Of a DNA stretch of 64,000 nt, positions 7,203-18,891 are shown one piece after another. The notes below the pieces were generated by a model. The model had not been told where the DNA came from, did no database searches, and worked only from the letters and a program-made list of their open reading frames with translations. Within the stretch, counting starts at the first letter, position 1, and each line of letters opens with the position of its first letter. The DNA lies in NCBI GenBank assembly GCA_964016885.1, contig OZ024766.1:7440001-7504000 (forward strand). The letters run 5' to 3'. Position numbers and translations under genes: made by a program. The DNA is from Eledone cirrhosa. Taxonomy: Eukaryota.

Positions 7203-7669
7203 CTTCATGGAGCCGGAGGCAGGTGTGGTTGTGACGAGAGGGGGGTACAGAAGGAGGGCAGTAGAAATAATATATTGATCACCACGGGGTTACCGACGGG
7301 GCTTGGGTGGGGTAGGATCGAGCAAGGGTAGAGTGGTGGGCGCGCCAAGGTGACAGGCGCTGTGAGAGAAAGAGAAGAAGAGAAAGCTGGGGAGAAGGGG
7401 AGCGGGGTGGCTGGGCCACTGCAGGCCGGTTGAAGTGGGTGGAGCGTTGTGCTAGGGACGAGAGTGAGAGAGGGTTGGGGACATTGAGGAGGGAGGCTGA
7501 GAGATGGAGCACGAAAGAAAGAGCACTGCAGGGGCTGAGAGAGAGAGAGAGGGAGGGAGAGAAAGGGGCGTGGCAGCGCAGGGGGAGACAAGAAAGAGAG
7601 AGGAAGGGGTGGAGCTGACAATGGGAAGTGGGGCAAGAAAGAGAAGGAAGCATGGCATTGTAGGGAGAG

Positions 7670-7747
<78 letters not shown>

Positions 7748-7782
7748 AAGACACAGAAGGAGAGACAAAAGAGAAAAGACAA

Positions 7783-7829
<47 letters not shown>

Positions 7830-8315
7830 GATATTAACAAATGGAAACTATATTTATAAAACCATATTTATTTCATTATACATATTTCAAGGACACCAAG
7901 TTAAATTATGGTGTGCTTTCATCAGCTAAAATATAATATAGACCAAATGTTAAGATAACTCAACAAGATATGACTTAGAATTTTCGCTCTCTCTCCTTTC
8001 TCTTTTTCTCATTCTTTTTTCTCTGTTGTTCTACTCTCTCTCTCTCTCTCTCTCTCTCCATAACCCAATGGCTTATTTAAAAATATCCAATACTAACTTA
8101 CCTAATAGTATAATTAAAGATATAACCCCACTATCTGGGAGCTTCCAACAGTAATGGTTGCAATCTTTAAGGGTATGTCAATATTTATTTATAAAACTGC
8201 TCTATATTATATTTTATCTGATGAAAGCACACCATAATTTAACTTGGTGTCCTTGAAATATGTATAATGAAATAAATATGGTTTTATAAATATAGTTTCC
8301 ATTTGTTAATATATC
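7830..8315. mobile_element. Penelope-like inverted terminal pair, each arm with a type I hammerhead
   Basis: Arms 7830-7945 and 8200-8315 are inverted. Plus copy: attatattttat-CTGATGA-aagcacacca..tggtgtcctt-GAAA-tatgt-ATA-atgaaataaat. Related copies at 40410-40545, 46580-46635 and 58616-58790. Confidence 0.75.
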
Positions 8316-8404
8316 GTATTTTTACTCCAATTACTTGTTGAGTGCTTTATATCAGTTATAAAAATATTTGCTTGTTGTATCCCAACAATTTAAATAGAAC
8401 TTTT

Positions 8405-8484
<80 letters not shown>

Positions 8485-8581
8485 AATAGGATTTCGCTTC
8501 AAGCATAGCTTTATACAATATGTATAAATATTTCGTATCTCCAAAGAAATACAGTTTTAGGAAGCCGTAGCTATGCAAACA

Positions 8582-8803
8582 CGCCCTCTGGTGGTGTCCA
8601 GCAGAAGCTAAGGGGGACAACCGTCTATGCATTTCAGGCTTAACTGGCCTTCGTCAGGAAGGACCCTCCCACCGCTTGCGACTGCTGAGAATATATTCTT
8701 TTCTCGTCTGTGTAAATGGACCGTCCCGACGAGGGCCAGTTAAGCCTGAAATGCATAGACGGTTGTCTCCCTTGCTTCTGCTGGATTCTCACCAGAGGTG
8801 GCG
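8582..8803 (-). other. Long intronic RNA hairpin (unique sequence)
   Basis: 8616-8649 is the exact reverse complement of 8734-8767 (34 bp), extendable to ~85 bp with few mismatches. Confidence 0.9.
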
Positions 8804-8804
8804 C

Positions 8805-14812: not shown

Positions 14813-16240
14813 AGCCTAGCAGACTCAGTAAAGCACTGGATGAAATCAGGTTTTCTCACCTCTTTCCACAAATTTACTGCCTTGGTGCTGGCCCTAAATT
14901 TAAAACTATGTGTCCTGGGTTAGTAGACTCGGTAGAGTGCTGGACAAAATCAAGTTTTCTCTCTTTCCCCCAAATTTACTAGCCCTAGTCCTCACCCTAA
15001 ATTTAAACCTACAAGTGCTGGGTTAGCAGACTCAGTAAAGCACTGGATGAAATCAGGTTTCTCACCTCTTTCCACAAATTTACTGCCCTGGTGCTGGCCC
15101 TAAATTTAAAACTATGTGTCCTGGGTTAGCAGACTCGGTAGAGTGCTGGACAAAATCAAGTTTTCTCTCTTCCCCCAAATTTACTAGCCCTAGTCCTCAC
15201 CCTAAATTTAAACCTACAAGTGCTGGGTTAGCAGACTCAGTAAAGCACTGGATGAAATCAGGTTTTCTCACCTCTTTCCACATTTTACTGCCCTGGTGCT
15301 GGCACCTAAATTTAAAACTATGTGTCCTGGGTTAGCAGACTCGGTAGAATGCTGGACAAAATCAAGTTTTCTCTCTTCCCCCAAATTTACTAGCCCTAGT
15401 CCTCACCCTAAATTTAAACCTACAAGTGCTGGGTTAGCAGACTCAGTAAAGCACTGGATGAAATCAGGTTTCTCACCTCTTTCCACAAATTTACTGCCCT
15501 GGTGCTGGCCCTAAATTTAAAACTATGTGTCCTGGGTTAGCAGACTCGGTAGAGTGCTGGACAAAATCAAGTTTTCTCTCTTCCCCCAAATTTACTAGCC
15601 CTAGTCCTCACCCTAAATTTAAACCTACAAGTGCTGGGTTAGCAGACTCAGTAAAGCACTGGATGAAATCAGGTTTTCTCACCTCTTTCCACAAATTTAC
15701 TAGCCCCAGTCCTCACCCTAAATTTAAACCTACAAGTGTTGGGTTAGCAGACTCAGTAAAGCACTGGATGAAATCAGGTTTCTCACCTCTTTCCACAAAT
15801 TTACTGCCCTGGTGCTGGCCCTAAATTTAAAACTATGTGTCCTGGGTTAGCAGACTCGGTAGAGTGCTGGACAAAATCAAGTTTTCTCTCTTCCCCCAAA
15901 TTTACTAGCCCTAGTCCTCACCCTAAATTTAAACCTACAAGTGCTGGGTTAGCAGACTCAGTAAAGCACTGGATGAAATCAGGTTTTCTCACCTCTTTCC
16001 ACAAATTTACTAGCCCCAGTCCTCACCCTAAATTTAAACCTACAAGTGCTGGGTTAGCAGACTCAGTAAAGCACTGGATGAAATCAGGTTTTTCACCTCT
16101 TTCCACAAATTTACTGCCCTGGTGTTGGACCAAATTTAAAACTATGTGTCCTGGGTTAGCAGACTCGGTAGAGTGCTGGACAAAATCAGATTTTCTCACT
16201 TCTCCCCACAAATTTACTGGCCCTAGATTTAAAACTATGA
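14808..16240 (+). repeat. ~103-bp two-monomer (A/B) higher-order tandem repeat
   Basis: Alternating gcagactcagtaaagcactggatgaaatc and gcagactcggtagagtgctggacaaaatc units, with an occasional extra hybrid unit. Confidence 0.9.
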
Positions 16241-16498
16241 GTGATGGTGGTTACTTCATAAAACAAGAGAGGTTTTTCACACAACACAATGTGTATGTTC
16301 ATGCATATTATAATGATGATGATGATGATGATGGATTGAAAAGGCGGGGGGGAGTGCAGCAAATATATATATATAGTATATATATATATATATAGTATAT
16401 ATATATACACACCTGTTTTGCATGAATTTTAACCCATGTCAATTTCATGCAGTCACATTATTATTATTATTATTGGCTACAAATATGTGTGTATATAC

Positions 16499-16541
<43 letters not shown>

Positions 16542-17088
16542 TATATATACATATATATATATACATATATATATATATACACACCATTTATGAACACTAA
16601 TAGCGGCCTTTAAAGTTGGACAATTATAGACTTACCACAGTATGTCTGTATATTTTATATACACACACGCATATACATACATATTTATATATATATAATG
16701 CATATATATATATATATATATCATATATATCATATATATATATATATATATATATACATAATATATATCATATATATTATAATGTATATATATATATACA
16801 TAATATATATCATATATAATGTATATATATATAATGGATATATATATATATGTATATATATATATATGTATATATATATATGTATATCATATATATGTAT
16901 ATATTATATATATTTATATATATATGTATATATATATATATATATATGTGTGTATGTATATATCATATATATATATGTATATATATATATATGTATGTAT
17001 ATATCATATATATATATATATATATATAATATATATATATATATATGTATGTATATATCATATATATATATATATGTATGTATATATC

Positions 17089-17120
<32 letters not shown>

Positions 17121-17134
17121 ATATCATATATATG

Positions 17135-17168
<34 letters not shown>

Positions 17169-17534
17169 CACACAGGTGTGTGTATATATCAAGTGGTGTG
17201 GTGTTAAAAGCTCAGGTATTTTGCTACCTCTGTTACAGTGGTGGTGGCAGAGGTGGTGGTGGTGGGCAGTGGTGGCGGGTGGAGGAAGCACCACACCAGA
17301 GAGGAAGACAGACAGACAGAGGAGAGAGAGAGAGGGGGGGGGGTCTGATGTGTCCACCCCACTGCCCTCCCACCCCCTACACCGACTGATTGCCTGGCTT
17401 TTAGTTGCGGACGTCACTCAGCCAAGGAGGAATAGGGGCCCGAGTAGCCCTCTCCACTCCAGTTAAAGGGTCCCTCGAGTTTAAAATGATGATGATGATG
17501 ATAATATCATAGAAGTAATTTGAAGTGATATGGA

Positions 17535-17850
17535 ATTGAGTGGAGTGAAGGCTGAGTAGAGGTTGAGTGGAGGCTGATTAGAAGTTGAATGGACGCAGAG
17601 TAGAGAACGAGTGATGGCTGAGTGGTGGGCGAGTAATGGCTGAGTGGAGGTGGAGTGAAGGCTGAGTAGAGGCCGACTGATGGCCGAGTGGAGGCTGAGT
17701 AGAGGTCGAATGATGGCCGAGTGGAGGCTGAGTAGAGGTCGAATGATGGCCGAGTGGAGGCTGAGTAGAAGTCGAATGATGGCCGAGTGGAGGCTGAGTA
17801 GAGGCCGAATGATGGCCGAGTGAGGGCTGAGTGGAGGTCGAGTGGAGGTG
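17535..17850. repeat. 39-bp minisatellite
   Basis: Repeats of gaatgatggccgagtggaggctgagtagaggtc. Confidence 0.9.
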
Positions 17851-18891
17851 TAGCGCGGAGCAAACTCGAAAGCATGTGCTAGTCTTCGTGGCGAAACTCG
17901 GAGCTAAATAGAAGAAAAGGTGCAGAGAGCTCGGACGTCGAGAGTGGCCAAAGAGTGGAAGGAGGAGGGAAAGAAACTACCAGGGTAGCAATGGTAGTAG
18001 TAGTAGTAGTAGTAGTAGTAGTATTAAGAGGCCAAACGTCCGACGAGGTCCGAGTTTCAGAGCCCAGCCAGACGAACACTGCCGATACGAGCCCCCGTTT
18101 CGTTTATTTTTTTTTTTTTTTTACACCGGCCCCCACTCATACTCACGCTCTCCCTCATCCCACTCCTCCAACGGCAACGAGCATGTCCCACAACCTATGT
18201 CGCCATGGACACCACCCCTCGTAACAGAGCTCAACGTAGCATCTTTGTTGCATTTGCATAAAATTTGGCATTATGGTTACATAATCATTTATGGTCATAT
18301 ACATATATATATGTATTATATATATATATATATATATACATACATATATATATATATACATATATATATGTATATATATATATATGTATGTATATTATAC
18401 AATATATATTTAATATATATATTTAATATATATATTTCTTTTTCATAGACCATATCTTTGGCAGACTTTTGTAATATATTCATAATATATATCTATATAT
18501 ATATTATGTGATATATATACATATATATACATATATATGTATGTATATTATACAATATATATTTCTTTTTCATAGACCATATCTTTGGCAGACTTTTGTA
18601 ATATATAAATATTATATATATTCATAATATATATCTATATCTATATATATATTATGTGATATATATACATATATATACATATATATGTATGTATATTATA
18701 CAATATATATTTCTTTTTCATAGACCATATCTTTGGCAGACTTTTGTAATATATAAATATTATATATATTCATAATATATATCTATATCTATATATTATA
18801 TGATAGGGTCTGCCAGGTTTACAGAACAAAAGCCAGTGTGACAAAAGGTATCAATATACCCACACATGGAAAGAGATAGATATGTTCTCAC

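What the first reader, a model, noticed from the sequence alone, without database searches (positions are those of the whole stretch)
7203..18891. Archipelago of unique GC-rich islands in one CHTOP intron, possibly a single RNA structure split apart by repeat expansion
Seen: amid TA microsatellites and arrays are non-repetitive blocks with no credible ORF at ~7203-7480, 8560-8803, 9775-9835, 11880-12070, 13542-13640, 13935-14160, 17375-17480 and 17850-18250. The HMGCS introns have almost nothing like this. Short complementarities seen by eye: ccaaagggtggcaagg (~11964) with cctgccacgcttgg (~14120), nested with gagcagggggct (~11987) with agccctgct (~14044); and gggtggggtaggatcgagc (~7305) with gcccgacctaccacatc (~13985). 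Inference: a conserved cis-regulatory RNA scaffold for intron retention, or an intronic ncRNA. These short matches could be chance, given purine/pyrimidine strand bias.
Basis: partly seen in the sequence, partly recalled or inferred. Interest (0 to 1): 0.72.

Follow-up and report, generated by a model that had tools for sequence, protein, structure and literature searches.

The report
Retained CHTOP control intron in octopus
In an octopus-type genome, an 11.7-kb intron of the RNA-export gene CHTOP stays unspliced in one RNA data set while the next intron is removed, and its single-copy GC-rich patches are likely the repeat-scattered remains of the splicing switch by which human CHTOP limits its own level, though folding of the patches into one structure is not shown.

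Summary
The islands lie in the CHTOP intron at 18891-7203 (minus strand). Seven of the eight are single-copy by genome search; 8560-8803 is a high-copy MITE. Ten GC-rich unique segments is the highest count among 46 regions tested. One RNA run carries exon 3 running 460 nt unbroken into this intron, has no depth in the next intron, and splices exon 3 to both downstream exons. So this intron is selectively retained, and retention puts a stop right after codon 21, as described for human CHTOP intron 2. The same intron position occurs in distant animals. In two lineages the intron is conserved well above its flanks and folds into a long stem that closes near the 3' splice site (consensus-fold z -4.0 and -5.6). 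The octopus islands share no sequence with those lineages beyond chance. No cephalopod comparison was available. Verdict: an invertebrate counterpart of a known autoregulatory retained intron, stretched by satellites and MITEs.

The parts
18892..18965 (-). CHTOP exon with the main ATG at 18953 (21 codons + 2 nt; phase-2 donor)
   Evidence: tblastn of named cephalopod CHTOP proteins; spliced join reads ...MSLNDR-FTNIQK...
7203..18891 (-). CHTOP intron at the R|F codon, 11,689 nt, GT donor followed by an in-frame TGA, weak AAG acceptor; 66% tandem repeat; retained in RNA
7049..7202 (-). CHTOP exon 3
   Evidence: RNA contigs leave at 7049
7203..7664 (-). 3'-terminal island, C/U-rich (47% C), holding the polypyrimidine tract, three upstream AG sites with pyrimidine tracts (7615, 7497, 7452) and the 3' arm (7266-7252) of the strongest predicted helix
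   Evidence: covered by one RNA contig continuous with exon 3
7830..8320 (.). AT-rich MITE with 128-nt inverted repeats (insertion, not part of the element)
   Evidence: 1769 candidates
8524..8803 (.).
   Evidence: (z -17)
9084..9669 (-). locus-specific 104-bp tandem expansion of intron sequence, sharing a CUGCAGUG motif with islands at 7424, 7531 and 12027
9755..9860 (-). single-copy island with a small predicted hairpin (9807-9775)
10550..11874 (.). 84-bp satellite found at many places of this chromosome, with its flank (insertion)
11875..12092 (-). single-copy C/U-rich island; 11911-11900 is complementary (12 bp) to 13596-13585
13542..13641 (-). single-copy island
13935..14145 (-). single-copy G-rich island
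17180..17490 (-). G-rich island (17345-17490) and C-rich partner (17240-17310) either side of a GA run; 17371-17357 can pair locally or with 7266-7252
17849..18296 (-). largest single-copy island (CpG o/e about 1.07); best-supported local hairpin 18100-17850 with a (UAC)10 microsatellite in its loop; lower part present in RNA at depth 20
   Evidence: (z -2.1/-2.4, 2 of 60 shuffles as good)
18802..18891 (-). first 90 nt of the intron, unique after masking
2896..2976 (-). alternative downstream exon (4a), one of the two exons spliced to exon 3 in the RNA run

Best explanation
This is the octopod counterpart of the CHTOP control intron: it is retained in RNA while the next intron is spliced, retention places a stop codon right after codon 21, and the single-copy G-rich and C/U-rich islands are likely the surviving cis-elements, probably acting as several RNA stems and protein-binding tracts that would slow splicing at a weak 3' splice site and so would let CHTOP limit its own mRNA. 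Shown: gene, intron position, in-frame stop, retention in one RNA run, excess of single-copy GC-rich islands, and repeat origin of the spacers. Shown in other animals only: conservation of the equivalent intron above its flanks and a stable consensus stem closing 30-60 nt before the 3' splice site. Inferred: that the octopus islands are under selection; that G-rich strands of the 5' islands can switch between local partners and the C-rich tract before the 3' splice site; that CHTOP binds them, as its N-terminal domain does in human; and that the retained RNA is held in the nucleus or destroyed by nonsense-mediated decay. Satellites, microsatellites and two MITEs later expanded the spacers, stretching an intron of 0.3-3 kb in most other loci fetched to 11.7 kb.
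For: RNA: run X3 has one contig over 7049-7660 and past the stretch's end (depth 29.7, 0 differences), no depth at 6985-7048 and two contigs leaving at 7049. Their loose-end consensus matches exon 4a or exon 4b at 30 of 30 letters (compared by eye). No contig leaves at 7202, so no spliced exon 2-exon 3 branch was listed. X3 also holds 17850-17983 at depth 20. Stop codon. Human precedent: PMC5175361 (parts 3-5 of 6 and search passages read). Island excess. Same intron position in 10 of the 27 fetched loci that hold both exons, and the only intron in the coding region of L033, L047, L051 and L058. L036-L045 group: last 1.1 kb of the intron 94-98% identical against 84-93% in neighbouring introns. 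Its consensus fold gives z -5.6 (0 of 25), and z -5.1 and -5.3 in 2 of 5 intron-2 windows against -1.0 and +1.2 in introns 1 and 3. L047/L051: intron alignment z 36 against 2-3 for three flanks; consensus fold z -4.0 (0 of 60). A helix with one arm in the last 80 nt: combined p 0.007 over 9 introns, 20 control ends 0.05-0.95. Octopus nested helices z -3.8 on the sense strand, -0.9 antisense; total fold z -2.9.
Against: Retention rests on assembled contigs of one run whose kind is not on record. Contigs give no strand or level, and minor branches can be pruned. 18034-18290 was absent from that run. No other cephalopod sequence was reachable, so conservation of the octopus islands themselves is untested. 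They share no sequence above chance with the other animals' introns (only L035 gave 8 shared 10-mers against 2.7 +/- 1.7, with 6 on the reverse strand). Strong inter-island helices number 4 against 3.5 expected. Long-range gain is -174 against -177 in shuffles, and the antisense concatenate folds better (-694 vs -625). Only 1 of 9 domains tested beat shuffles. The octopus 3'-end helix alone has p 0.089, and that test was chosen after seeing the data. Covariation is thin even where alignable: 1 compensatory, 10 one-sided and 10 broken changes, and 4 compensatory against 3.2 expected in L047/L051. A stop at a phase-2 GTRA donor is generic.
Confidence: 0.6

Rival explanations
1. All islands fold together into one giant rod in which the G-rich 5' islands zip in order onto the C-rich island before the 3' splice site, with repeats looped out.
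For: The predicted fold of the joined islands is such a rod, with helix probabilities of 0.9-1.0 for most of 17475-17417 on 7454-7501 and 14015-13985 on 7601-7634. Nested helices -260 vs -169 +/- 23, 0 of 60 shuffles (hand mask that included a satellite flank). End-to-end stems occur in the short L047/L051 introns.
Against: Long-range gain equals shuffles; order permutation z -1.6 over 11 permutations, antisense folds better; pairwise long-range domains z about 0 to -1.6; one high-probability helix uses satellite DNA.
Confidence: 0.2
2. The islands act as decoy or poison exons: cryptic splice sites engage the true sites and block excision.
For: Eight AG sites with pyrimidine tracts lie in the islands. 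Ten U1-complementary sites occur in 2219 nt, against 2.2 per kb in controls. The block shared by L034 and L035 contains a donor-like site. Mechanism described in PMC6097662 (search passages read).
Against: Equal donor count on the antisense strand (10 vs 10). None of the 8 acceptors has a donor above my cut-off within 300 nt. No joints or island-boundary loose ends in X3. The short introns L047, L051, L056 and L058 have no internal donor above the cut-off.
Confidence: 0.2
3. The islands are neutral leftovers of old intron DNA or decayed repeats, and the intron is merely slow to splice because of its weak acceptor.
For: One island is a MITE. There is no cross-phylum sequence match. Purine/pyrimidine patchiness explains much of the pairing. 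Own-genome searches can miss old repeats.
Against: GC-rich unique segments are nearly absent from the same gene's intron 1. The equivalent intron is conserved above flanks in the lineages that could be aligned.
Confidence: 0.15
4. The RNA signal comes from an internal promoter or an antisense or hosted non-coding RNA, not from retention of the whole intron.
For: High CpG o/e in 17849-18296. X3 lacks 18034-18290. Contigs give no strand.
Against: The intron sequence is joined to exon 3 in one contig whose other end is spliced in the CHTOP direction. Both far ends of the intron appear at similar depth (20 and 30). No Rfam family at gathering score in the intron, and only microsatellite-type or weak hits below it.
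Confidence: 0.1

Closest known systems
Human CHTOP intron 2 autoregulation (Izumikawa et al. 2016, PMC5175361; parts 3-5 of 6 and search passages read, supplement PDF not readable)
   Same: [quoted passage not shown] That the human intron falls in the same codon is recalled and fits the paper's 81-nt exon 2; it comes from no call.
   Different: The human intron is about 1.5 kb with two local predicted stem-loops in its first 450 nt. Here it is 11.7 kb, two-thirds tandem repeat, with unique blocks spread end to end. Binding, decay and sequence likeness to the human element were not testable. The paper describes CHTOP as conserved in vertebrates with no ortholog in yeast, worm or fly.
Yeast RPL7B zipper-stem autoregulation (PMC12311795, abstract read)
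   Same: A stem that brings the intron ends together at a weak splice signal, with a mutually exclusive structure bound by the gene's own product. This matches the geometry of the L047/L051 stem and the two possible partners of octopus 17371-17357.
   Different: Unrelated gene and organism; the octopus switch is only predicted.
Decoy-exon retention in SF3B1, OGT, ARGLU1, DDX39B (PMC6097662, search passages read)
   Same: Large retained intron of an RNA-processing gene with island-like internal blocks.
   Different: No paired cryptic acceptor and donor and no junctions found here.
Yeast YRA1 intron (PMC2864733, search listing only)
   Same: An mRNA export adaptor with a regulatory intron built from several modular elements.
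   Different: Different protein family; cytoplasmic Edc3-dependent decay in yeast.

Membership tests
CHTOP intron-2 autoregulatory retained intron | Host gene is CHTOP | tested here: met
   exon 3 peptide 96-100% identical to named cephalopod CHTOP proteins; searches place the other exons
CHTOP intron-2 autoregulatory retained intron | Intron follows the short N-terminal coding exon and carries a stop at its 5' side | tested here: met
   same position in 10 other loci; human codon position recalled
CHTOP intron-2 autoregulatory retained intron | Intron retained in otherwise spliced RNA | tested here: met
   one run, contigs only
CHTOP intron-2 autoregulatory retained intron | Stem-loops in the 5' part of the intron, like the human Int2-1-2-2 element | tested here: inconclusive
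   hairpin 18100-17850 z -2.1/-2.4; human sequence not available
CHTOP intron-2 autoregulatory retained intron | CHTOP binds exon 2 and the intron, and raises retention | not testable with these tools
   needs binding and dosage experiments
CHTOP intron-2 autoregulatory retained intron | Retained RNA degraded by nonsense-mediated decay | not testable with these tools
   needs UPF1 knockdown or translation block
Decoy-exon retained introns | Cryptic exon with paired acceptor and donor, seen as junction reads | tested here: not met
   0 of 8 acceptors paired with a donor above cut-off; no joints in two laid stretches; crude scoring, contigs only
Known intronic ncRNA families (Rfam 15) | Match at the family's gathering score | tested here: not met
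Conserved long-range RNA structure across the octopus islands | Covariation between arms in related genomes | not testable with these tools
   no other cephalopod DNA reached
MITE (island 8560-8803 and 7830-8320) | Terminal inverted repeats and high copy number | tested here: met
   target-site duplications not examined

The most novel reading that the evidence does not exclude
CHTOP self-control through this one intron is pan-animal and structure-based: each lineage keeps a long stem that closes beside the 3' splice site while replacing its sequence, and in the octopus that stem still forms across 10 kb of satellites and transposons, as a switch between local and splice-site-blocking pairings.
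Probability: 0.25. Interest if true: 0.7.

Novelty: new variant of a known kind. Interest (0 to 1): 0.45.

Why it matters
The feedback loop is described for vertebrate CHTOP only. Searches for CHTOP with octopus, with invertebrate, intron and conserved, with complementary regions and RNA structure and with Int2 listed nothing on invertebrates; the library is limited to open-licence papers. Retention in an octopus, and a conserved structured intron at the same codon in distant animals, would date the loop to early animals. The 320-380-nt introns of L047, L051 and L058 offer minimal reporters for it. The octopus copy is a natural test of how far an intronic RNA element can be pulled apart by repeats and still work.

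Tried and rejected
No run was on record as RNA in the run search; X3 was recognised as RNA only from its splice joints. X1 and X2 behave as low-depth DNA of the same species, and X4 and X5 gave no reads, so none gave cross-species data. CHTOP loci: none in genome contigs or viral contigs. Earlier-findings look-ups by relatives, words and protein were empty. Rfam: only a tRNA-like match at 27610-27667 at gathering score, and microsatellite-type or weak hits below it. Single-island folds are not unusual except the MITE (island 9775-9860 gave z -4.2 on the non-transcribed strand only). Shared k-mers across animals did not exceed shuffles. A CUGGC motif 38-56 nt after the donor in 5 of 8 introns, and an 11-nt match near the 3' end in octopus and L035 (10 nt in L056), were picked after the fact and are not counted as evidence. 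Profiles built from six groups of introns found no other group; the octopus hits were microsatellites. The L049/L050 pair is conserved but its consensus fold is not unusual (z -0.6). A pairing of the first 45 nt of the octopus intron with 7284-7272 was not supported (z +0.6). Two of 11 planned domain folds did not run for time. Twelve of 46 regions were dropped for having under 700 or over 4000 unique bases. My first translation of exon 2 was out of frame. A search on NXF1 cassette introns returned nothing. The supplement of PMC5175361, which holds the human stem-loop sequences, could not be read and bears on the homology question.
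Full report
Setting. The window is a repeat-rich animal locus in a 3.0-Gb assembly. The exon at 7202-7049 translates to a peptide 100% identical to CHTOP of Octopus and Argonauta and 96% to cuttlefish, so the organism is taken as an octopod. The upstream exon 18965-18892 joins it in frame. An N-terminal exon lies at 46224-46153, an alternative exon at 2976-2896, and the remaining exons lie before the window start. 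The finding is therefore the 11,689-nt intron 18891-7203 on the minus strand. Reading from exon 2 into the intron gives ...LNDR then a stop. The acceptor is a weak AAG.

Observation. Tandem repeats cover 66% of the intron. Own-genome searches found only the locus itself for the cores of seven of the eight named islands, with the tool's caveat that no match does not prove rarity. The island 8560-8803 is a foldback MITE with 2461 first-look candidates. A second MITE sits at 7830-8320. The 84-bp array and its flank from about 10550 belong to a satellite found at many places of the chromosome. The 104-bp array at 9084-9669 occurs only here and arose from local sequence. One automated mask was applied to the intron, five other parts of the window and 40 stretches of the same chromosome. 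The intron keeps 10 unique segments with GC of 48% or more, the most of 46 regions (next 6; the intron is 11.7 kb against 10 kb for most), while the pieces covering intron 1 keep 0, 0 and 1. The archipelago is real and unusual.

RNA. The run search listed three holders of unrecorded kind and three DNA runs. On 6985-7660, run X3 gave one 615-nt contig from 7049 through exon 3 and 460 nt into the intron with no differences, depth 29.7. It gave nothing in intron 3, and two contigs leaving at 7049. Each of the 30 letters of their loose-end consensus matches either exon 4a or exon 4b (compared by eye), so X3 is spliced RNA. No contig leaves at 7202. X3 also holds 17850-17983 at depth 20 but not 18034-18290. 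I read this as retention of this intron with intron 3 removed. Limits: one run, contigs only, no strand or level; assemblers prune minor branches (recalled); a hole proves nothing.

Human precedent. PMC5175361 (parts 3-5 of 6 and search passages read) shows that human CHTOP binds exon 2 and predicted stem-loops in the 5' part of intron 2 and causes retention. The retained RNA, with a stop at the 5' side of the intron, is degraded by nonsense-mediated decay, and hnRNP H opposes retention. That the human intron lies in the same codon as the octopus one is recalled. The supplement with the sequences was unreadable.

Other animals. A scan of metagenome contigs gave 27 CHTOP loci. Ten hold both exons and have the intron in the same R codon, 320 to 5500 nt long. 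In L033, L047, L051 and L058 it is the only intron in the coding region. Broad labels (L036-L045 probably insects, L046/L047/L051/L058 probably cnidarians) are my guesses and were not tested. In the L036-L045 group the last 1.1 kb of the intron is 94-98% identical to L040, like the exons, against 84-93% in neighbouring introns. Its consensus fold beats column shuffles (z -5.6, 0 of 25). Two of five intron-2 windows give z -5.1 and -5.3, introns 1 and 3 give -1.0 and +1.2, and antisense values are similar. Helix positions vary less (24 of 242 vs 433 of 2685, p 0.009), but changes are 1 compensatory, 10 one-sided and 10 breaking. L039 carries a 2.6-kb insertion in mid-intron. In L047/L051 the intron aligns (z 36) where three flanks do not (z 2-3) and forms an end-to-end stem (z -4.0, 0 of 60), with 4 compensatory pairs against 3.2 expected. 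L049/L050 is conserved but not unusually structured (z -0.6). A helix with one arm in the last 80 nt gave combined p 0.007 over 9 of 11 introns (two close relatives left out), with 20 control ends unremarkable. The test was chosen after seeing the data, and octopus alone has p 0.089. No sequence is shared between octopus islands and these groups beyond chance.

Structure in the octopus. For: with a hand mask, nested perfect helices sum to -260 against -169 +/- 23, 0 of 60 shuffles. With the automated mask z is -3.8 on the sense strand and -0.9 antisense, rank 2 of 68 region-strands. The joined islands fold to -625 against -588 +/- 13 (12 local shuffles), as a nested rod. The strongest helix joins 17371-17357 to 7266-7252, 50-64 nt before the acceptor, and the same G-rich strand has a local partner at 17272-17264. 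Against: strong inter-island helices number 4 against 3.5 expected. The excess energy lies in local folds, and the long-range gain (-174) equals shuffles (-177). Permuting island order costs little (z -1.6, 11 permutations), and the antisense strand folds better (-694). Of 9 domains folded, only the hairpin 18100-17850 around the (UAC)10 microsatellite beats shuffles (2 of 60). A 14-bp helix forms with satellite flank DNA. One giant structure is thus possible but not shown; several local or mid-range stems are more defensible.

Alternatives. Decoy exons: eight pyrimidine-tract acceptors lie in the islands but none is paired with a donor above my cut-off, donors are equally common on both strands, and no joints were seen. 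Hosted ncRNA: no Rfam family. Neutral leftovers: not excluded without cephalopod alignments, but disfavoured by the contrast with intron 1 and by conservation in other lineages.

Verdict. This works like, and by position, stop codon and retention most likely is, the CHTOP autoregulatory intron, here in an invertebrate and expanded by repeats. Binding, decay and covariation of the octopus islands remain untested. Novelty: new variant of a known kind. Interest 0.45.

Noticed in passing
window 2896-2976 (-): Alternative CHTOP exon 4a; the RNA run splices exon 3 to it and to the next exon (two contigs, depths 33 and 19, not assigned).
   Followed up: partly
window 46150-46300 (-): Upstream CHTOP exon with its own ATG that could add an N-terminal extension of about 26 residues, as in Octopus gene models; intron 1 is 27 kb.
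   Followed up: partly
window 7830-8320 and 8524-8803: Two high-copy MITE families with long inverted repeats; inside a retained intron they would form long double-stranded RNA, possible A-to-I editing substrates.
   Followed up: partly
window 10550-11874: 84-bp satellite whose best-scoring copies lie mostly on the same chromosome (C27).
   Followed up: partly
window 27610-27667 (-): tRNA-like match just over the Rfam threshold, possibly a tRNA-derived SINE head.
   Followed up: no
L035 intron position 1274-1290 and L056 intron position 274-290: Exact 17-nt match between two otherwise unalignable CHTOP introns; octopus 7281-7271 shares 11 nt with L035 near the 3' end.
   Followed up: partly
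L034:1-90 and L035:5365-5465: Conserved mid-intron block with a donor-like site, present twice in L035; possible decoy donor.
   Followed up: partly
window 18891-18886 with 7202-7196: The donor can base-pair with the first bases of exon 3 here and in L047/L051/L058; may be forced by the R-F-T codons.
   Followed up: no
window 7428 and 7518: Two single-base differences in runs X1/X2; the one at 7428 would keep a predicted pair as G-U.
   Followed up: no
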